Part shown: positions 4,636 through 44,824 of the stretch, one piece after another
Numbering within the stretch: the stretch's first letter is position 1
Layout of the letters: the number at the start of each line of letters is the position of its first letter
From: a virus
Lineage: Duplodnaviria > Heunggongvirae > Uroviricota > Caudoviricetes
Virus record (IMG/VR): IMGVR_UViG_2778261573_000004
Span: 1 to 44,824 of that record
Length of the DNA stretch: 44,824 nt
Direction: 5' to 3' (one strand)
Position numbers and translations under genes: made by a program
The notes under the pieces: model-generated
Told to the model about the DNA's origin: nothing
Databases searched by the model: none
What the model saw: the letters and a program-made list of their open reading frames with translations, nothing else

Positions 4636-5073
4636 TTAACGTTGCTCCCATATCCAGTAAAACCTGAATTCCTGCCAGTCCTTCCCCGGTGCCTGATAGC
4701 GGATAATGAGATTGAGCCGGTCAGGCAGGACGATCCTTGCAACAGGAATAACCTCGCTGACAACGCCATCAACCTTTAACCAGTTGAGCGCTTCACTCGA
4801 GTATTCCTCCGCTTTTTTTGCTACATCCGGGGTCAGTTTTTTCCGCCGTAGCAGCCACAGCCGGGATCCCAGTTGGGATTCCTCCCCGGAATCCCCCCAC
4901 CAGCCGCGGCGATCGCTATCCTCATAATTATCGTCAGCGCGCGCCAGCCTGTCGGTAAACAGGCTGTCCAGTATTGCAGTCTGTAAATCGTTCCCCGTGG
5001 TGAGTTCACCCAGCCCTTTCTGCCAGTCAGCAAACATCTCATCCACATTCCAGAATGAAGCGATGTCACTCAT
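4636..5073 (-). CDS. Baseplate protein, GP46 family (Mu gp46-like)
   Basis: 145 aa, conserved order between the gp45-like and gp47-like genes; overlapping start/stop with neighbours. Confidence 0.65.
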   Translation of the reverse strand: MSDIASFWNVDEMFADWQKGLGELTTGNDLQTAILDSLFTDRLARADDNYEDSDRRGWWGDSGEESQLGSRLWLLRRKKLTPDVAKKAEEYSSEALNWLKVDGVVSEVIPVARIVLPDRLNLIIRYQAPGKDWQEFRFYWIWEQR

Positions 5074-28344: not shown

Positions 28345-28816
28345 GTTGCCAGTTTTCAATGAAGATAATGCGGGCAAAAAAAGCCTGCTCGGACGAACAG
28401 GCATGAAAAATAACAATACCGTCAAGGAGGTGGCGCCGGGTGCCTCCCGGTGGAACAGCCCCAGCCGACTAGTTCCGCGCAAACAAACCTGGACAAAAAA
28501 GTTTGACTGGTCGCCCCTCCGCATAGGGGGATTCACCACACTAAAAATTTAACATCTGATGAAACTCGTTTCAATGCTCTACGACGATGTGACAGGGGTA
28601 TTGATGCAATGCAAATAGACCTACTCTCGGAGCAAGGATAACAACTTTTCCGTACTCTCTTCTGTAAGTTCGAAGTGGATCAATTCTTCGCCATTCTTGA
28701 GAATGTAGAGTTCTTTACTCCCTTTATCATCAGTAGTGATATCAAGGGCATAAATATCAGGCTTGCATAGCGTAATGCCGCCTGTCGTAACTAGCGTCTT
28801 ATTAACGAGGTGACTC

Positions 28817-36960: not shown

Positions 36961-37638
36961 ATGGAAAATAAAGAAATCAGAAAAGCCAACCTGGAAGCGC
37001 TGTACGAGAAGCGTCAGCACGAGTCTGGAATGACCAAAGCGCAGTTTGCCGAGCTCATCGAGACAAGTCCGGCTGCGCTTAGCCAGCTACTGGGACCAAA
37101 CCCTCATCGCAATATCGGCGATAAGATGGCTCGCAAAATTGAAACTGCGCTTGATCTGCCTTTTGGCTGGATGGATGTTTTACACGCCAGTGAAGAACCT
37201 TCGAACGTTGCATTTCGAGGACTGAACGAGACAAAAGGAAGTTATCCTGTAATCAGCTGGGTAAGCGCGGGGCAATGGATGGAAGCTGTAGAACCTTATC
37301 ACCGAAGAGCGATAGATCGCTGGTATGACACGACTGTTGACTGCTCAGAAGATTCATTCTGGCTGGACGTTAAAGGGGATTCTATGACCTCCCCGGCTGG
37401 ACTGAGCATACCCGAGGGAGCAGCGATACTTGTTGATCCTGAAGTCGAGCCGCGCAACGGAAAGCTGGTTGTCGCGAAGCTAGAAGGCGATAACGAAGCG
37501 ACCTTTAAGAAGCTTGTAATCGATGCCGGCAGACGCTTCCTAAAGCCCCTTAACCCCGCATATCCAATGCTAGAAATTAATGGAAACTGCAAAATCATCG
37601 GCGTTGTGGTTGATGCCAAAATACTAAACATCCCATAA
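36961..37638 (+). CDS. cI: CI-type prophage repressor (HTH plus S24 LexA-like peptidase domain)
   Basis: Start at MENKEIRKANLEAL; N-terminal HTH; C-terminal VKGDSM (Ser nucleophile) and VVAKLEG (Lys) of S24 autopeptidases. Confidence 0.9.
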   Translation: MENKEIRKANLEALYEKRQHESGMTKAQFAELIETSPAALSQLLGPNPHRNIGDKMARKIETALDLPFGWMDVLHASEEPSNVAFRGLNETKGSYPVISWVSAGQWMEAVEPYHRRAIDRWYDTTVDCSEDSFWLDVKGDSMTSPAGLSIPEGAAILVDPEVEPRNGKLVVAKLEGDNEATFKKLVIDAGRRFLKPLNPAYPMLEINGNCKIIGVVVDAKILNIP

Positions 37639-40338: not shown

Positions 40339-40572
40339 ATGGCCCGCAGAAATTTACTCCACAAATCGAAATTAGCCGACTTTAAGGAGTGGCTCTCGAT
40401 GAACGGAATTCAGTGGAGAGATGGGAAAGGTAGTTACCAGGTGATCCAGGTGAATACGGGATGCGGCTGGACACCGATTTATGACAGCAGCAAAGAGCGA
40501 CGCGAGCATTTCACTATTCAGGATGCTCTCAGGCCTTTGGTAAACAGATTCATCAGAGAGGCTGCAAAATGA
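40339..40572 (+). CDS. Hypothetical early protein
   Basis: 77 aa, RBS AAGGAGAGAG before the ATG; 4-nt overlap with the next gene. Confidence 0.45.
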   Translation: MARRNLLHKSKLADFKEWLSMNGIQWRDGKGSYQVIQVNTGCGWTPIYDSSKERREHFTIQDALRPLVNRFIREAAK

Positions 40573-41072
40573 CAGATTCAAAAACACATTACCGCAAGGC
40601 ATTTGACTCCCCTTACCTCAGCAGCGCCGACATCGTTGAGCCAACGGTGCTGACGATCGCCCGGGCAACGTTAGAAAACGACAAAACAAAAAAATCCAAA
40701 GACGTTTTTAACACTGCTTATTTTGAAGAGCGCGAGCTGCGCCCTGGCGAAAAGCTTAAGCCGATGATTCTGAATGCCACGAACAGCAAGATGCTGAAAA
40801 GCATTACCGGATCCCCCTTCCTTGAGGATTGGGTAGGCGTGAAGGTCACTGTTTACGTCGATAAAAATGTCCGGTTCGGAAAGGAATCGGTTGAAGGTCT
40901 CCGCTTAAGCCCGGCGCGCGTCACAAAGCCGGTGCTTTCGCCGGAGAAAACGCAGGCTTGGAATAACGCTAAGGCCGCCTTCAAGCGCGATGGCAACCTT
41001 GATGCAGTGCTGGCGAGAATGGACATTTCTCCAGAGCATCGCCGCCAGCTTGAGCAGGAGTGTTCATCATGA
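40569..41072 (+). CDS. Hypothetical protein, possible partner of the exonuclease (recombination module)
   Basis: 167 aa immediately upstream of and overlapping the YqaJ-type exonuclease; function inferred from position only. Confidence 0.4.
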   Translation: MTDSKTHYRKAFDSPYLSSADIVEPTVLTIARATLENDKTKKSKDVFNTAYFEERELRPGEKLKPMILNATNSKMLKSITGSPFLEDWVGVKVTVYVDKNVRFGKESVEGLRLSPARVTKPVLSPEKTQAWNNAKAAFKRDGNLDAVLARMDISPEHRRQLEQECSS

Positions 41073-41692
41073 TCTGGCACGACGTCGAGCAAAACGGTGA
41101 AGAGTGGGACGCTCTTCGCCTGGGTAAGGCCACCGCTTCAAACTTCGGCCTGATCATGGCTAACGATGGGAAGGCTTTTGGCGAACCAGCCAAGCGTTAT
41201 GCCCTTCAATTGGCTCTTGAGCAGATTAAGGGGTGCAAGTCTGAATTTGGCTTTTCAAACGAGCACATGGAGCGCGGGCACGAACAGGAGCCAATTGCCC
41301 GCATGCTGTACGAAGAGATGAACTTCGTCGACGTGGATAACGGTGGGTTCTTTGATCACGAAACCTACGGTGACAGCCCAGACGGACTCGTTGGCCAGGA
41401 CGGGCTCGTTGAGATTAAGTCGGTCATTGCCGCCACTCACTACTCCACCCTAACCCGCGGCTCCTTCGATCCGGCATACAGATGGCAACTGGTCGGTCAC
41501 CTTGATTGCTCCGGCAGGGATTGGGTGGACTTCATCAGCTACTGCTCAGACTTCCCGGACGGTAAGCAGCTCATCGTTTATCGCCTTACAGCTGCTGAAT
41601 GTGAAACAGAAATAGCCCGGCTTCGCGCACGCAGAAATGATTTCCTCGAACTTGTTGCGGACACTAAGCGCCGCATACTGGAGCTCGAATGA
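41060..41692 (+). CDS. YqaJ-family viral recombinase exonuclease (lambda Exo-like, PD-(D/E)xK)
   Basis: 210 aa; WDALRLGKATASNFGLIM and GDSPDGLVGQDGLVEIKS match YqaJ/lambda-exonuclease active-site motifs. Confidence 0.8.
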   Translation: MFIMIWHDVEQNGEEWDALRLGKATASNFGLIMANDGKAFGEPAKRYALQLALEQIKGCKSEFGFSNEHMERGHEQEPIARMLYEEMNFVDVDNGGFFDHETYGDSPDGLVGQDGLVEIKSVIAATHYSTLTRGSFDPAYRWQLVGHLDCSGRDWVDFISYCSDFPDGKQLIVYRLTAAECETEIARLRARRNDFLELVADTKRRILELE

Positions 41693-42117
41693 AACGCACC
41701 CCCTTCTATCGCAGGCCCGGGCGAACCGGACAATTCTCCGGCCTCCGTGAGCGCGTTATCTGGATGATTCAGACGCGCGGCCGCCCGGTCACCGGTAGTG
41801 AAATCGCTGAGAAGTTTGGCGTAACGCTCATTGAGTTTAACCGGGTCGCCAACGGGATCACCCGCGGCTCCGGACAGATAGCTCAGATCGTTGAGTCGGA
41901 AAAATGGCTCAACGAGGACGGAATCTGCGACCGGACTTTCGACCTGGTCACGAAGCCGAAGGTTGTGACGCCGCAGGGCAAATCGCGCCTGTTCACCCGG
42001 CGCGCCATTGAGCAATCGCAGGAAGGTAGACGGCAGGAGTGCATAGCCCGTGCCGCCCGCCGTAGCCGCCTGATTGCTCAGGGCCTCTACATCGACGAAA
42101 TGGAGTCCATCCTATGA
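41689..42117 (+). CDS. Hypothetical protein
   Basis: 142 aa; overlapping start/stop with neighbours. Confidence 0.45.
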   Translation: MKRTPFYRRPGRTGQFSGLRERVIWMIQTRGRPVTGSEIAEKFGVTLIEFNRVANGITRGSGQIAQIVESEKWLNEDGICDRTFDLVTKPKVVTPQGKSRLFTRRAIEQSQEGRRQECIARAARRSRLIAQGLYIDEMESIL

Positions 42118-42272
42118 CTCACGCTCACGACGACATCAGGGTTGGCGCGGTGCGCCTTCCCTGGCTCAAAGAGAAAAACGGATGGTTGCTGCCGTGGGGT
42201 GAAGTCGTTACCAACCCACTGAAGGCGCAACGACTGGCTGAAGAACTTAACGAAAAGCAGGTGGCAGCATGA
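42114..42272 (+). CDS. Small ORF (52 aa; below the ORF-track size cut-off)
   Basis: ATG 42114 overlaps the upstream stop; its stop overlaps the Dam ATG (ATGA). Confidence 0.3.
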   Translation: MTHAHDDIRVGAVRLPWLKEKNGWLLPWGEVVTNPLKAQRLAEELNEKQVAA

Positions 42273-43153
42273 GATACGGCTCTGTTTGCAGTGGAGCTGC
42301 GGCGATGCCCATAGAAGAACCGGCGCTGCGCAGCTGGCAGCGCCCGTTCCTTAAATGGGCTGGCGGCAAATATTCGCTGCTGCCGGAACTGGATCGTTTG
42401 ATCCCCGCAGGTAAACGCCTTATTGAGCCTTTTGTGGGTGGCGGCTCGGTGTTCCTTAACTCAGACAAGCACGAACGCTTTCTTCTGGCTGACGTCAACG
42501 CTGACCTGATTAACCTGTATCAGATGCTGGCGGTGGTCCCCGACTCGGTGATCTATGAGGCAATGAAGGCATTCAGGCATCTGAATGATGCCGAAAACTA
42601 CACGGTAATTCGTGAAGCATTCAACGCGCAGCGGCTGGATGCGGTCGAGCGCGCAGCAGCGTTCCTTTACCTCAACCGGCACTGCTTCAACGGGCTGATC
42701 CGTTATAACCTGGACGGTTTTTTTAACGTCGGCTTTGGGAAATATAAAGCGCAATATTTCCCGGAAGAAGAGATCAGGGCATTTAAGCGGAAGGCTCACG
42801 CATGCGTATTCATGAATGCAGGCTTCAGGCGCACGCTCGCGCTGGCAGGTGATGGTGACGTCGTTTACTGCGATCCGCCTTATGAGCCGCTGCCCGGCAC
42901 CGCTGGTTTCACTAACTATGCGGCTGGTGGGTTCTCATGGGATAGCCAGGTAGAACTTACGGAAAGCTGTGTGGCAGCCCACCAGCGGGGGGCAAAAGTG
43001 GTGATCAGCAATTCTACCGCTCCGCGCGTAATTGAACTTTACGAACAGCACGGCTTCACGCTGCACCGCGTCAGTGCTCGCCGGGCTATATCCAGCAAAG
43101 GCAGTACCCGCGAAACAGCGAGTGATGTCGTAGCCACTTTGGGAGTGCAGTGA
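42269..43153 (+). CDS. dam: DNA adenine methyltransferase (Dam/D12 class N6-adenine MTase), orphan
   Basis: FVGGGSVF (AdoMet-binding FxGxG) and DPPY catalytic motif in the correct order; no adjacent restriction endonuclease. Confidence 0.9.
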   Translation: MRYGSVCSGAAAMPIEEPALRSWQRPFLKWAGGKYSLLPELDRLIPAGKRLIEPFVGGGSVFLNSDKHERFLLADVNADLINLYQMLAVVPDSVIYEAMKAFRHLNDAENYTVIREAFNAQRLDAVERAAAFLYLNRHCFNGLIRYNLDGFFNVGFGKYKAQYFPEEEIRAFKRKAHACVFMNAGFRRTLALAGDGDVVYCDPPYEPLPGTAGFTNYAAGGFSWDSQVELTESCVAAHQRGAKVVISNSTAPRVIELYEQHGFTLHRVSARRAISSKGSTRETASDVVATLGVQ

Positions 43154-43395
43154 TGATGAAGCTGATTAATCGCAGTAAGCAATCACCTATTGGTCGCCGC
43201 GCTTGCGATGTTGCGCTGGCGGCTCACTTGCAAACATATGGCGACTATGGGCGAAGCAAGATGAAAGAGACTTATACGGTGAAGGTTGAAGGCGTGAAAG
43301 TCTGGGTGGAGGTGGTGAACCGAAAGGCGAGCTACGTGGCCACAGCGATGACCGGCATGCGCCGTCTCCGCTCCCTGCCCGGGCAGGTTGGTTGA
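43150..43395 (+). CDS. Hypothetical protein
   Basis: 81 aa; overlaps the Dam stop. Confidence 0.4.
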   Translation: MMMKLINRSKQSPIGRRACDVALAAHLQTYGDYGRSKMKETYTVKVEGVKVWVEVVNRKASYVATAMTGMRRLRSLPGQVG

Positions 43396-43436
43396 AAAAG
43401 ATTTTGAATGGCCCGAACGGGCAACTGGAGAGAGCT

Positions 43437-43634
43437 ATGGATGATATTTTGGTAACGTCAGACCTGACCAGTCGCTACAAAATTTCACGCAAAACCCTTT
43501 GGTCATGGCAAAGTGCAGACACAATGCCTCGGGGCTTCGTATGCCCGTTCCCACCCCCTGACTGGCCCGGCAACCCTAACCGCTGGCGCTCTGAGTCAAT
43601 CAAAGAGTGGGAGGATAAAAAGAAGATAAATTAA
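43437..43634 (+). CDS. xis: Excisionase / AlpA-family DNA-binding protein
   Basis: Start at [10 protein letters not shown] with RBS GGAGAG; [15 protein letters not shown]...[13 protein letters not shown] resembles AlpA/Xis HTH proteins; convergent with and overlapping the integrase stop. Confidence 0.6.
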
Positions 43635-44824
43635 CTGAAGGGCTCTCCGATGATCTCTTCAAGATGGCTCTGCCAAACGCGGAGCCAGTGTTTCTGATCA
43701 TCGATATAGTCATGAAGGTTGTAATGCGCCATAACCCCCACCATCTGATGCCCGAGCAGCTTTTCAATTACGTGCGGCGGGCAACCTAACTCAGAGAGAT
43801 TTGTGGCTATCGTCCGCCTCATATCATGAAGCGACCACTCTGCCATACCTGTTCCATTCCAAATAGAACGGGCGTAATTGGATGCCACAGGTGAATGAAC
43901 GGGCGAATCTTTGATCCCGCCATCAATTTTACGTTGTGAAGTCACCAGGTGATTGGTGTTTATTTTCTTGAGGTGATTTCTGACCAGGTTAACGGCGGCG
44001 TCTGAGAGTCCCCTTCTAATATGTACCCGAGTTTTATAACTGCCCGCAGGCACGACCCACTCATTATCATCCAATCGAAACCATGATCTCTCACTAAGTC
44101 GAATCTCAGCCGTACGGCATCCGGTAAGCATAATAAATTTCACCAGGAAAACGGACTCTATCGACATATGGCTTTTCAACCACTGATAGATTTTGCGCAG
44201 ATCGTCATCGTCCATCCTGCGAGTTCTCTTTTTAGGCTTTTGCCCGACATCAGATGGCAGTAATCCCTCGAGTGGGTTTGAGGCGATCACACTTCTGTTA
44301 ACGCAGAACCTAAACGCCCGTTTGCACAGCGAAAGCATGTAATGAGCCATCACCCTGCTTTCTATAGAATCGAAGACGTTGATCCAGTGCATTTTCGCTG
44401 TGTTATCGACTTTGACATTCTTCATCGGTTCGGCGATATGTTTCTCAAACACCTGGCGATAGTAATCGACTTTAACTAGCCCGTTAGCGATACAGTGCCT
44501 TTCAATCCAGTAATTGAACGCTTCGGCAACGGACATCGCTTCCTGTCGGGTCTGCTTATCCAGCTTCACCTGCTCTCGCGGATCCAGTCCCTCAGTTAAC
44601 CAGTTTCTGAATTGTTGGCGACGCTCTCTTGCCTGGGTGATACTCATTGCAGGATAATCACCAACATTGAGTTTTACCGCTTTACCGGCCCAGCGATACC
44701 GATAGAAAAATGATATTTTTCCGGCCTGGCTGATTCTGGCGTTGAGCCCGTGCGAATCAGAAATAATCTCGATATCATCTCTTTTCTTGCCGAGCGCCTT
44801 CCTGAGCTTTGTGTCGGTGATCAT
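43631..44824 (-). CDS. int: Tyrosine integrase (phage integrase family)
   Basis: 397 aa; C-terminal catalytic region with [16 protein letters not shown] and YNLHDY (R-H-R-Y tetrad). The ATG coincides with the last base of the window, so the true N-terminus may lie outside it. Confidence 0.9.

What the first reader, a model, noticed from the sequence alone, without database searches (positions are those of the whole stretch)
42114..43395. Orphan Dam-type adenine methyltransferase in the early-left operon
Seen in sequence: FxGxG and DPPY motifs, no neighbouring endonuclease; flanked by small overlapping ORFs. Established knowledge: phage-encoded orphan Dam methylases can protect phage DNA from restriction and alter host gene regulation in lysogens.
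Basis: partly seen in the sequence, partly recalled or inferred. Interest (0 to 1): 0.35.

Follow-up and report, generated by a model that had tools for sequence, protein, structure and literature searches.

The report
Intact phi80-type prophage Dam methylase
This is an ordinary, already-annotated phage gene for a GATC-type DNA adenine methylase with no partner restriction enzyme: the intact version of a gene that is broken in the laboratory phage phi80, and itself a trimmed-down remnant of a larger two-in-one cytosine-plus-adenine methylase.

Summary
The stated span 42114-43395 holds three 4-bp-overlapping + strand ORFs: DUF1317 (42114-42272), a 294-aa Dam-family methyltransferase (42269-43153) and DUF4060 (43150-43395). 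The methylase matches Pfam PF02086 at E 8.6e-58 and is 47% identical to E. coli Dam. Its predicted fold matches E. coli Dam (TM 0.91-0.92).

No endonuclease lies next to it, here or in 35 related loci. It sits about 4.5 kb downstream of the cI repressor in an unbroken leftward gene array ending in xis.

It is the intact ortholog of phi80 damL, annotated as a frameshifted pseudogene. The window has T7 where phi80 has T8. T8 occurs only in phi80 and laboratory strains, so there is no sign of phase variation. Dam-domain dN/dS is about 0.10, so the gene is maintained.

New detail: the first 9 codons are a relic of a C5-cytosine methyltransferase. Relatives encode 610-856-aa C5::Dam fusions, and at least six different in-frame collapses to Dam-only exist.

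The exact protein is already in NCBI as E. coli "DNA adenine methylase". Verdict: real, ordinary and known; low interest.

The parts
42114..42272 (+). DUF1317 small ORF (52 aa), the family of lambda orf60a. Its stop overlaps the dam start (ATGA). It is the conserved upstream neighbour of the methyltransferase.
   Evidence: PF07026 E 5.3e-20; phrog_1998 E 1.9e-29. It lies directly upstream of the MTase in nearly all related loci with enough flank. In VT2-Sakai the DUF1317 gene is annotated as similar to lambda orf60a.
42269..43153 (+). Orphan Dam-family N6-adenine DNA methyltransferase, 294 aa, predicted target GATC. It is the intact ortholog of phi80 damL.
   Evidence: PF02086 E 8.6e-58; TIGR00571 265 bits; E. 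coli Dam PDB 2g1p E 2.7e-67; 47% identity over 261 aligned residues. AlphaFold model pLDDT 80.7, with E. coli Dam as best PDB match at TM 0.91-0.92. 98% identical to the phi80 damL reading frames. dN/dS about 0.10.
42269..42295 (+). Codons 1-9 (MRYGSVCSG): relic of the N-terminus and motif I of a C5-cytosine methyltransferase, joined in frame to the inter-domain linker (codons 10-24, nt 42296-42340).
   Evidence: The full-length relatives begin MRYGSVCSGIEAAS... and carry PF00145. Aligned with E. coli MB06022, the window lacks about 1.4 kb. Residues 1-17 of the model have pLDDT below 50.
42431..42445 (+). Motif I, F55-V-G-G-G59 (FxGxG, AdoMet binding).
   Evidence: Read directly from the sequence. 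Aligns with F35-x-G37-x-G39 of E. coli Dam. Invariant in 41 homologs.
42686..42748 (+). DNA-recognition hairpin region (F140 to K160). It contains the equivalents of the E. coli Dam residues Y119(F), N120, L122, R124, N126, N132, P134(G), R137(K), Y138 and K139.
   Evidence: Pairwise mapping; residue roles from PMC4417163. Gly at the P134 position in 114 of 122 clade members.
42718..42724 (+). T7 homopolymer (GGT TTT TTT, Gly-Phe-Phe). This is the site of the +1 T frameshift (T8) that makes phi80 damL a pseudogene.
   Evidence: Alignment with phi80. T7 in 33 of 35 IMG/VR contigs. In complete E. coli genomes 16 carry T7 and 59 carry T8; the 59 are almost all named laboratory strains.
42872..42883 (+). 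Motif IV, D202-P-P-Y205 (catalytic DPPY).
   Evidence: Read directly from the sequence. Aligns with D181-P-P-Y184 of E. coli Dam. Invariant in 41 homologs.
43150..43395 (+). DUF4060 small ORF (81 aa, GTG start overlapping the dam stop). It is the conserved downstream neighbour and its function is unknown.
   Evidence: PF13269 E 1.4e-37; phrog_1852. It lies directly downstream of the MTase in all related loci with enough flank. It also occurs without dam in mEp237, HK225 and mEpX1.
43437..43634 (+). xis (excisionase), the last gene of the leftward array. The mechanical ORF starts at TTG 43392, but the family match begins at Met16 (ATG 43437).
   Evidence: phrog_1553 excisionase E 1.4e-33 over residues 16-79. 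The phi80 xis is annotated with the same extent.
43631..44824 (-). phi80-type tyrosine integrase (context only; marks the prophage end).
   Evidence: PF13356 and PF00589; 99-100% identical to the phi80, mEp237 and HK225 int.
43665..43687 (+). Terminator-like hairpin inside int on the leftward-transcript strand. It corresponds to the 'putative leftward transcription terminator' annotated in phi80.
   Evidence: Consensus scan; phi80 annotation. It is a consensus match only.

Best explanation
The gene at 42269-43153 encodes an active, solitary Dam-family DNA methyltransferase that transfers a methyl group from AdoMet to N6 of the adenine in GATC. It is the intact form of phi80 damL. It lies near the distal end of the leftward (pL-type) early operon of a mosaic phi80/HK225-like prophage and is translationally coupled to its neighbours through 4-bp stop/start overlaps. 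It should therefore be silent in the lysogen and made after induction or infection, together with the gam, exonuclease and xis functions. The most likely job is to top up GATC methylation on rapidly replicating phage DNA, which the scarce host Dam cannot keep fully methylated. Progeny genomes would then be uniformly methylated, resistant to nucleases that cut un- or hemimethylated GATC, and independent of the Dam status of the host. In evolutionary terms it is a reduced form of a bifunctional enzyme. An in-frame deletion of about 1.4 kb removed the C5-cytosine methyltransferase domain of a C5::Dam fusion and kept its start codon, ribosome-binding context and first 9 codons. Shown here: family, fold, motifs, synteny, lack of a restriction partner, purifying selection and the deletion origin. 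Inferred: GATC specificity, the timing of expression and the biological benefit.
For: Family and fold: PF02086 E 8.6e-58; TIGR00571 265 bits against a cut-off of 114.85. Best solved relatives are E. coli Dam (E about 3e-67), DpnM and T4 Dam, all GATC enzymes. The AlphaFold model (pLDDT 80.7) superposes on E. coli Dam at TM 0.91-0.92 and rmsd 2.0-2.7 A. Active-site and recognition residues: FxGxG, D54, DPPY, K9, N120, L122, R124 and Y138 equivalents are all conserved, with roles taken from PMC4417163. Maintained by selection: 28 unique Dam-domain alleles give a median dN/dS of 0.10 at mean dS 0.12. Orphan status: DUF1317-MTase-DUF4060 without a nuclease in all related loci. Operon position: cI on the same strand upstream, no sigma-70-like site on the + strand between cI and the end of xis, and 4-bp overlaps from 41689 to 43634. 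Ortholog: 96.8% nucleotide identity to the phi80 damL-xis-int region, where damL is annotated as a frameshifted pseudogene. Deletion origin: 610-, 761- and 856-aa relatives carry PF00145 plus PF02086 and start MRYGSVCSGIEAAS; PHROG 116 (779 positions) is matched only at 511-778. The phage does not avoid GATC: 197 sites, observed/expected 0.82, similar to other 4-bp palindromes. Prophage-borne Dam homologs assigned GATC specificity are documented in E. coli (M.EcoGV; PMC6602927). A prophage Dam homolog was transcribed at significantly lower levels than dam in a lysogen (M.EcoMIV; PMC4659465).
Against: No activity or specificity data exist for this clade in anything I could read. Two DNA-contact residues differ from E. 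coli Dam: Y119 is Phe, and P134, which contacts the third base pair, is Gly. Specificity could therefore be relaxed or shifted. The gene scores below the cut-off of the housekeeping-Dam equivalog model (271.6 against 441 bits). The benefit to a phage whose usual hosts are already Dam+ is not demonstrated. phi80 propagates well with the gene broken, so it is dispensable in the laboratory. The promoter scan is a simple consensus search and cannot exclude a weak internal promoter.
Confidence: 0.75

Rival explanations
1. Pro-recombination, anti-mismatch-repair role. The phage Dam rapidly converts un- or hemimethylated GATC to fully methylated sites, which MutH cannot nick. Heteroduplex and recombination intermediates made by the neighbouring gam, exonuclease and annealing-protein module would then not be cut or corrected by host MutHLS. 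The enzyme is the same as in the best explanation; only the selected benefit differs.
For: The gene always lies immediately distal to the recombination genes. In Salmonella phage SEN34 the order is gam-recT-exo-dam. In the window and in phi80 only one or two small ORFs intervene. The cassette travels with three different recombination modules: YqaJ type, lambda Exo with Bet or RecT, and others. That fully methylated GATC resists MutH is established knowledge and was not tested here.
Against: This is purely positional evidence. mEp237, HK225 and mEpX1 carry recombination modules and the same DUF4060-xis-int genes but no dam, so the link is not obligatory. No experiment is available.
Confidence: 0.25
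2. Lysogenic-conversion role. The methylase is expressed from the prophage and changes host gene regulation or virulence through extra GATC methylation.
For: Dam methylation controls pap, agn43 and other loci in E. coli (PMC6602927 discussion). Overproduced Dam is known to perturb such switches (established knowledge).
Against: The gene lies in the repressor-controlled leftward operon and the consensus scan found no promoter-like site upstream. About 99.9% of GATC sites are already methylated in E. coli (PMC6602927). A prophage Dam homolog in ST131 was transcribed at significantly lower levels than dam and judged inactive in the lysogen (PMC4659465).
Confidence: 0.1
3. Changed or relaxed specificity. 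Because the clade carries Gly at the P134 position and Phe at the Y119 position, the enzyme may methylate GATC-like sites such as GANC or GAT-N, and so protect against a wider set of nucleases.
For: Gly at the P134 position in 114 of 122 clade members, against Pro in E. coli Dam. L122 and P134 contact the third base pair in E. coli Dam (PMC4417163).
Against: R124, the main determinant of the fourth base pair, and N120, L122, K9 and Y138 are all conserved. P134 makes only a van der Waals contact, and Tyr to Phe keeps the intercalating aromatic ring. All the closest solved relatives are GATC enzymes.
Confidence: 0.1
4. Phase-variable (contingency) methylase. The T7 tract would switch the gene ON and OFF by slipped-strand mispairing, as the phi80 GenBank note hints.
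For: phi80 differs from the window by one extra T in this tract, and the phi80 annotation mentions potential slipped-strand synthesis.
Against: T8 is confined to phi80 itself. Two of 35 IMG/VR contigs have T8, and both have phi80-identical Dam-domain sequence. The 59 complete E. coli genomes with T8 are almost all named laboratory phi80-carrying strains such as DH5alpha, DH10B, TOP10 and JM83. All 16 other E. coli genomes have T7, and no T6 or T9 was seen. The tract is T7 in 27 other distinct alleles that differ by mean dS 0.12. Seven-base runs are not unusual: there are nine in the window.
Confidence: 0.03
5. Decaying relic. After losing the C5 domain the remaining ORF is non-functional, as in phi80.
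For: phi80 tolerates a frameshift. The N-terminus is a leftover and is predicted to be disordered.
Against: dN/dS is about 0.10 across 28 alleles, including deletion-type ones. All catalytic motifs are intact. The frame is intact in every allele recovered outside the phi80/laboratory-strain lineage. Two exceptions need noting: L028 carries only the C-terminal part of the domain behind an unrelated N-terminus, and one T8 genome (TSW4848-W1) is recorded as derived from a lake isolate.
Confidence: 0.05

Closest known systems
phi80 (Lula) damL, locus PHI80_34, GenBank JX871397
   Same: Ortholog at the same position, between the 142-aa ORF and DUF1317 on one side and DUF4060-xis-int on the other. 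About 97-98% amino-acid identity and the same C5-relic N-terminus MRYGSVCSGAAAMPIEEP.
   Different: phi80 has T8 instead of T7 at window 42718-42724, which shifts the frame; it is annotated as a pseudogene. The window allele is intact. The DUF1317 region just upstream is diverged (69% amino-acid identity), which indicates a recombination junction there.
E. coli K-12 Dam (M.EcoKDam; PDB 2g1p, 2ore, 4rtj and others)
   Same: Same family (PF02086, TIGR00571), same alpha-type motif order and 47% identity. Same fold (TM 0.91-0.92). The AdoMet, catalytic and most GATC-contact residues are conserved.
   Different: It is not the housekeeping ortholog: it scores below the NF008152 equivalog cut-off. 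Y119 is Phe, P134 is Gly and R137 is Lys. It has an extra 23-residue N-terminal leader derived from another enzyme. It is phage-borne and in a repressor-controlled operon.
Prophage C5-cytosine::Dam fusion methyltransferases (PHROG 116; e.g. WP_447312971.1 of E. coli MB06022, 761 aa; 610- and 856-aa forms in IMG/VR prophages)
   Same: Same locus, same start codon and first 9 residues, same linker, and a 96-99% identical Dam domain.
   Different: The window lacks the whole C5 domain (residues 10-476 of the 761-aa form), so it can only make m6A. The domain is missing in frame, not disrupted.
Phage P1 Dmt (bifunctional Dam plus C5 methyltransferase)
   Same: It is also a phage enzyme that joins a D12-class Dam domain to a C5-cytosine domain. 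A gene annotated dmt in Escherichia phage vB_EcoM-Ro157c2YLVW is 48.6% identical to the window protein over residues 5-291.
   Different: From my own knowledge (Lobocka et al. 2004, not checked here), P1 Dmt has the Dam domain at the N-terminus and the C5 domain at the C-terminus, the opposite order. It would therefore be an independent fusion.
M.EcoVT2Dam of Stx2 phages VT2-Sakai and 933W
   Same: A solitary phage-encoded adenine methylase of a lambdoid E. coli prophage, with GATC as its reported target (PMC6602927).
   Different: It belongs to a different family (PF05869, 175 aa) and lies in the nin region of the rightward operon, not the leftward one. The resemblance is functional only.

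Membership tests
Dam family, D12-class N6-adenine DNA methyltransferase (PF02086 / TIGR00571) | Profile match above the curated cut-offs over the full domain | tested here: met
   PF02086: 196.5 bits against a cut-off of 22, profile positions 1-253 of 253. TIGR00571: 265.2 bits against a cut-off of 114.85.
Dam family, D12-class N6-adenine DNA methyltransferase (PF02086 / TIGR00571) | AdoMet-binding motif I (FxGxG) lying N-terminal to catalytic motif IV (DPPY), i.e. alpha-group order | tested here: met
   F55-V-G-G-G59 and D202-P-P-Y205, both invariant in 41 homologs.
Dam family, D12-class N6-adenine DNA methyltransferase (PF02086 / TIGR00571) | Dam fold (catalytic Rossmann-like domain plus helical DNA-binding domain with a recognition hairpin) | tested here: met
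   AlphaFold model with pLDDT 80.7 and pTM 0.81. The best PDB matches are E. coli Dam (TM 0.91-0.92, rmsd 2.0-2.7 A), then DpnM and T4 Dam.
GATC-specific Dam enzymes | Base-contact residues of E. coli Dam: K9, N120, L122, R124, Y138 | tested here: met
   K29, N141, L143, R145 and Y159 are conserved. Their roles are taken from PMC4417163.
GATC-specific Dam enzymes | Intercalating Y119 and third-base-pair contact P134 | tested here: not met
   Y119 is Phe140, a conservative aromatic change. P134 is Gly155, and Gly occupies this position in 114 of 122 clade members. The consequence for specificity is unknown.
GATC-specific Dam enzymes | Demonstrated m6A at GATC | not testable with these tools
   This needs expression in a dam- host followed by DpnI/MboI digestion or a SMRT/nanopore methylome.
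Housekeeping Dam ortholog (NCBIfam NF008152 equivalog) | Score above the equivalog cut-off | tested here: not met
   271.6 bits against a cut-off of 441. It is a paralogous phage lineage, not the chromosomal dam.
Orphan (solitary) methyltransferase | No cognate restriction endonuclease in the same locus | tested here: met
   The neighbours are DUF1317, DUF4060, xis, int, a 142-aa protein of unknown function and a YqaJ recombination exonuclease. The arrangement is the same in 35 IMG/VR loci and the E. coli genomes examined.
phi80 damL ortholog group | Same genomic position and near-identical sequence | tested here: met
   96.8% nucleotide identity over 41688-44824 and the same flanking genes.
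Bifunctional C5-cytosine::Dam methyltransferase (PHROG 116 architecture) | Presence of the C5-cytosine domain (PF00145) | tested here: not met
   There is no PF00145 hit in the window protein and only the first 9 residues remain. PHROG 116 is matched only at positions 511-778 of 779. Relatives carry PF00145 plus PF02086.
Phase-variable methyltransferase (phasevarion type) | Repeat-tract length polymorphism among closely related strains | tested here: not met
   The tract is T7 everywhere except the single phi80/laboratory lineage, which has T8. No other lengths were seen.
Small phage Dam family PF05869 (M.EcoVT2Dam type) | PF05869 profile match | tested here: not met
   The window protein hits only PF02086. 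VT2-Sakai orf32 hits PF05869 at E 6e-65.

The most novel reading that the evidence does not exclude
The Dam-only gene may be one of at least six independent in-frame collapses of a bifunctional C5-cytosine::Dam prophage methyltransferase. All of them keep the original start codon and the Dam domain, which is under strong purifying selection. The most novel reading not excluded is this: modification-dependent (Type IV, McrBC-like) restriction of m5C-marked phage DNA repeatedly prunes the cytosine module, while the adenine module is kept for a phage-specific purpose tied to the adjacent recombination genes, such as shielding recombination intermediates from MutH. This would be a natural record of an arms race written into one gene's domain architecture.
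Probability: 0.25. Interest if true: 0.45.

Novelty: already known. Interest (0 to 1): 0.18.

Why it matters
As it stands it matters little. Solitary Dam homologs are common in enterobacterial prophages. This exact protein is already deposited and correctly named, and its phi80 counterpart has a gene name.

Two small points are useful:
- The damL frameshift of phi80, carried by DH5alpha, DH10B, TOP10, JM83 and similar strains, is specific to that laboratory lineage. Apart from one truncated IMG/VR copy (L028), every copy recovered from IMG/VR contigs and non-laboratory E. coli genomes is intact and under selection. Conclusions drawn from phi80 about the dispensability of damL therefore need not hold in nature.
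- The locus shows a graded series from 856-aa C5::Dam fusions to Dam-only genes, with several different in-frame junctions. This is a ready-made system for asking why phages keep adenine methylation but shed cytosine methylation.

Tried and rejected
- **Phase variation at the T7 tract.** I scanned IMG/VR with a gapped pattern and all complete E. coli genomes with T7 and T8 probes. Rejected: T8 occurs only in phi80 and laboratory strains.
- **GATC avoidance or enrichment in the window as a clue to function**. GATC observed/expected is 0.82, in the middle of the range for 4-bp palindromes, so it is uninformative.
- **An own promoter for dam.** The consensus scan found no promoter-like site on the + strand anywhere between cI and the end of xis. 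This is weak negative evidence.
- **A structured RNA in the region.** The Rfam gathering scan found nothing in 42114-43395.
- **The antisense ORF 42461-42799 (112 aa).** It has no support. The strong purifying selection fits the + frame.
- **M.EcoVT2Dam as the closest characterised relative.** Rejected: it belongs to a different Pfam family and a different operon.
- **The phi80 genome paper (J Bacteriol 2012) and Fang et al. 2012 (M.EcoGV).** Neither is held in the library, so the full damL note and the M.EcoGV data could not be read.
- **A remark in PMC13449921 that deleting damL altered a BamHI pattern**. The cited work (PMC9764419) describes inserting a cos site next to the damL pseudogene. 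This is not evidence of methylase activity.
- **The exact deletion breakpoint and any microhomology.** These could not be fixed because the linker region is too variable between the window and the available full-length relatives.
Full report
**1. What is at the coordinates**

The stated span 42114-43395 contains three + strand ORFs that overlap by 4 bp at each junction:
- 42114-42272: 52 aa, DUF1317/PF07026, E 5e-20.
- 42269-43153: 294 aa, the methyltransferase.
- 43150-43395: 81 aa, DUF4060/PF13269, E 1e-37.

Only the middle ORF is the methyltransferase. It matches the D12-class N6-adenine DNA methyltransferase profile PF02086 end to end (E 8.6e-58, 196.5 bits against a cut-off of 22). It also matches NCBIfam TIGR00571 'dam' (265 bits against 114.85). 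FVGGG is at residues 55-59 (nt 42431-42445) and DPPY is at residues 202-205 (nt 42872-42883).

**2. Family, fold and likely chemistry**

The closest solved structures by sequence are E. coli Dam (E about 3e-67), DpnM of the DpnII system (1.5e-46) and T4 Dam (about 1e-17). All three are GATC enzymes. Identity to E. coli Dam is 47% over 261 aligned residues.

An AlphaFold model built on 41 homologs has mean pLDDT 80.7 and pTM 0.81. It superposes on E. coli Dam with target-normalised TM 0.91-0.92 and rmsd 2.0-2.7 A, followed by DpnM and T4 Dam.

I mapped the E. coli Dam residues whose roles are described in PMC4417163 onto the window protein:
- Conserved: K9, W10, F35/G37/G39, D54, N120, L122, R124, N126, N132, Y138 and D181-P-P-Y184.
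- Changed: Y119 (the intercalating residue) is Phe, P134 (van der Waals contact to the third base pair) is Gly, and R137 is Lys.

Gly at the P134 position is a clade signature, found in 114 of 122 homologs. GATC is therefore the best prediction, but the third-base-pair contact differs, so I rate specificity as inferred, not shown. The protein scores below the cut-off of the housekeeping-Dam equivalog model NF008152 (271.6 against 441 bits). It belongs to a phage lineage of the Dam family and is not a copy of the chromosomal dam gene.

**3. Context: solitary, in the leftward early operon**

The window is a mosaic lambdoid prophage.
- The early region is about 96% identical to HK225 and phi80.
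- The late region has no close nucleotide relative among isolated phages.
- The right end is a phi80-type DUF4060-xis-int module.

A cI-type repressor (HTH_3 + Peptidase_S24) lies at 36961-37638 on the + strand, with a cro-sized ORF on the opposite strand. From there a same-strand array runs through homologs of phi80 agt and gamL, a YqaJ-type exonuclease, a 142-aa ORF, DUF1317, dam and DUF4060 to xis.

From 41689 to 43634 every stop overlaps the next start (ATGA, GTGA, TTGA). The dam start is preceded by AGGTGG. The consensus scan found no sigma-70-like site on the + strand between cI and the end of xis. It did find a terminator-like hairpin at 43665-43687, which matches the leftward terminator annotated in phi80.

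There is no endonuclease gene next to dam. tblastn of the window's proteins against 35 IMG/VR contigs, phi80 and E. coli MB06022 finds the same DUF1317-methylase-DUF4060 cassette wherever enough flank is held. The cassette sits next to several different integrases and recombination modules and never has a restriction gene. In Salmonella phage SEN34 the order is gam-recT-exo-dam-DUF4060. mEp237 has recE-recT-DUF4060-xis-int with no dam. The methylase is thus an optional module between the recombination genes and DUF4060.

**4. Relation to phi80**

The region 41688-44824 is 96.8% identical to phi80. In phi80 the homologous gene is named damL and annotated as a pseudogene disrupted by a frameshift, with a note about possible slipped-strand synthesis. 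The alignment shows the cause: phi80 has T8 where the window has T7, at 42718-42724 in GGT TTT TTT (Gly-Phe-Phe).

I tested whether this tract is a contingency switch.
- In IMG/VR, 33 of 35 contigs have T7. The two with T8 have Dam-domain sequence identical to phi80.
- Among 5,426 complete E. coli genomes, 75 carry the site. Of these, 59 have T8, almost all of them named laboratory strains such as DH5alpha, DH10B, TOP10, JM83, XL10 and EPI300. One (TSW4848-W1) is recorded as derived from a lake isolate.
- The other 16 genomes, from cattle, humans, food, frogs and water among other sources, have T7. No other length occurs.

The frameshift is therefore a single event in the laboratory phi80 lineage, and phase variation is rejected. 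Across 28 distinct alleles of the Dam domain, the median pairwise dN/dS is 0.10 at mean dS 0.12. Outside the laboratory lineage the gene is maintained by purifying selection.

**5. An unexpected origin**

Many close homologs (72-97% identity) carry a C5-cytosine methyltransferase domain (PF00145) in front of the Dam domain.

The complete form in E. coli MB06022 is 761 aa. It starts MRYGSVCSGIEAASVAW and contains the PCQ and ENV motifs. It reaches ...GNSMAVPVMRWIGERIAAALPVEAPAPHNWQRPFLKWAGGKY, where the C5 domain passes through the linker into the Dam domain. IMG/VR prophages carry 610-aa and 856-aa versions at the same locus. PHROG 116, a 779-position profile, is matched by the window protein only at positions 511-778.

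The window protein begins MRYGSVCSG|AAAMPIEEPALRSWQRPFLKW. That is the first nine residues of the C5 enzyme, half of its AdoMet motif I, joined in frame to the inter-domain linker. Aligned with MB06022, the window lacks about 1.4 kb. phi80 has the identical junction. Residues 1-17 are predicted to be disordered.

Other relatives show different in-frame junctions that keep the same start:
- MRYGSVCSGIGG|RIATVLP
- MKYGSVCSGIEAA|IPVEEP
- MRYGSVCSGIEAASVA|AALPIEEP
- MRYGSVCSG|NATSLPIEEP
- MKCGSVDIGIEAATVA|SELAPR

Still others have unrelated short N-termini (MNYGFVNVCVEQ..., MSYCAEISRQ...). Loss of the cytosine module with retention of the adenine module has therefore happened repeatedly.

In complete E. 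coli genomes the window-type junction occurs in the 59 laboratory strains and in two natural isolates. Four natural isolates carry full fusions.

Deletion is more parsimonious than insertion, because the retained nine residues are a fragment of a C5 motif with no role in a Dam enzyme. A plausible driver is restriction of m5C-marked DNA by McrBC-type enzymes, whose properties are reviewed in PMC12707154. This is inference only.

**6. How it most likely works**

- **Shown:** family, fold, catalytic and most recognition residues, solitary status, operon position, selection and origin.
- **Inferred:** the enzyme methylates GATC. It is made only after induction or infection, because it lies in the repressor-controlled leftward operon and has no detectable promoter of its own.
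- **Supporting literature:** a prophage Dam homolog in E. coli ST131 was transcribed at significantly lower levels than dam in the lysogen and judged inactive (PMC4659465). E. coli already methylates about 99.9% of its GATC sites (PMC6602927). A regulatory effect in lysogens is therefore unlikely.
- **Best-supported benefit:** topping up methylation of fast-replicating phage DNA, so that progeny are uniformly methylated and protected from nucleases acting on unmethylated or hemimethylated GATC.
- **Attractive alternative:** protection of recombination intermediates from MutH, suggested by the constant position next to gam, exo and the annealing protein.

The phage does not avoid GATC. It has 197 sites, with observed/expected 0.82, typical of 4-bp palindromes here.

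**7. Comparison with what is known, and verdict**

- The exact 294-aa protein is already in NCBI as E. coli 'DNA adenine methylase' on 27 contigs.
- The phi80 ortholog has a gene name.
- Prophage Dam homologs assigned GATC specificity, such as M.EcoGV, are documented (PMC6602927).
- M.EcoVT2Dam of Stx phages is only a functional analogue: PF05869, 175 aa, in the nin region.
- Phage P1 Dmt also joins Dam and C5 domains but, to my knowledge, in the opposite order. That point was not checked here.

The finding is real and correctly interpreted, but it is ordinary and already known. The added value of this second look is threefold. The phi80 frameshift is a laboratory-lineage event rather than a switch. 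The gene is under selection outside that lineage. It is a reduced derivative of a bifunctional methyltransferase that has been reduced several times independently.

Interest is 0.18. The most novel reading not excluded is that Type IV restriction drives recurrent loss of the cytosine module while Dam is kept for a recombination-linked role. I give that a probability of about 0.25 and an interest of about 0.45 if true.

Noticed in passing
window 42269-42340; L037:3582-5867; L004, L006, L008, L018, L030, L031, L035, L036: The dam ORF starts with the first 9 codons of a C5-cytosine methyltransferase (MRYGSVCSG). Relatives at the same locus are 610-, 761- and 856-aa C5::Dam fusions. At least six different in-frame deletion junctions that keep this start exist among the homologs.
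   Followed up: yes
window 42718-42724 versus L001 (phi80) 5025-5032: The tract is T7 in the window and T8 in phi80, and T8 is the damL frameshift. T8 is found only in phi80 and laboratory E. coli strains (59 complete genomes). T7 is found in all 16 other E. coli genomes and in 33 of 35 IMG/VR contigs.
   Followed up: yes
window 42731-42733 (Gly155): The residue equivalent to P134 of E. coli Dam, a contact to the third base pair of GATC, is Gly in 114 of 122 members of this phage clade. Y119 is Phe. Specificity could be subtly different; this was not tested.
   Followed up: partly
window 40569-41692: The recombination module differs from that of phi80. In place of RecT plus lambda-type Exo there is a 167-aa protein with no Pfam or NCBIfam hit (phrog_21613, unknown function), followed by and overlapping a YqaJ-type exonuclease. 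The 167-aa protein sits where a single-strand annealing protein would be expected. The same pair occurs in IMG/VR locus L007.
   Followed up: partly
window 28372-28568 (-): Full-length Rfam match to the gammaproteobacterial sRNA STnc100 (RF02076), 84.5 bits against a gathering score of 47, in the rightward early/nin part of the prophage.
   Followed up: no
window 1-24900: The late (structural) half has no close nucleotide relative among isolated phages; only about 1.2 kb of tail-fibre-assembly genes matches, at about 90%. The early region is about 96% identical to HK225 and phi80. The prophage is a mosaic that shares only its control, recombination and integration end with phi80.
   Followed up: partly
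window 43150-43395 and 42114-42272: DUF1317 and DUF4060 flank the methylase in nearly all of the related loci, next to several different integrase types. DUF4060 also occurs without dam in mEp237, HK225 and mEpX1. Neither has a known function.
   Followed up: partly
E. coli 23AR0998, NZ_CM132249.1 near 2687858 (hit H242): In this human isolate the window-type dam gene is annotated next to a DGQHR domain-containing protein instead of DUF1317. This may be a different neighbour of interest for DNA-modification systems.
   Followed up: no
window 42700-42724 (+): The T7 tract is preceded by a weak hairpin (CCGTTATAACCTGGACGG) and was flagged as terminator-like by the consensus scan. With 5 pairs, only 3 of them G-C, and a site count no higher than in shuffled sequence, it is probably chance.
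   Followed up: no
literature: PMC13449921 versus PMC9764419: A 2026 paper states that deleting phi80 damL altered a BamHI pattern and suggests methylase activity. The cited work describes inserting a cos site beside the damL pseudogene, and phi80 damL is frameshifted. This should not be taken as evidence of activity.
   Followed up: partly
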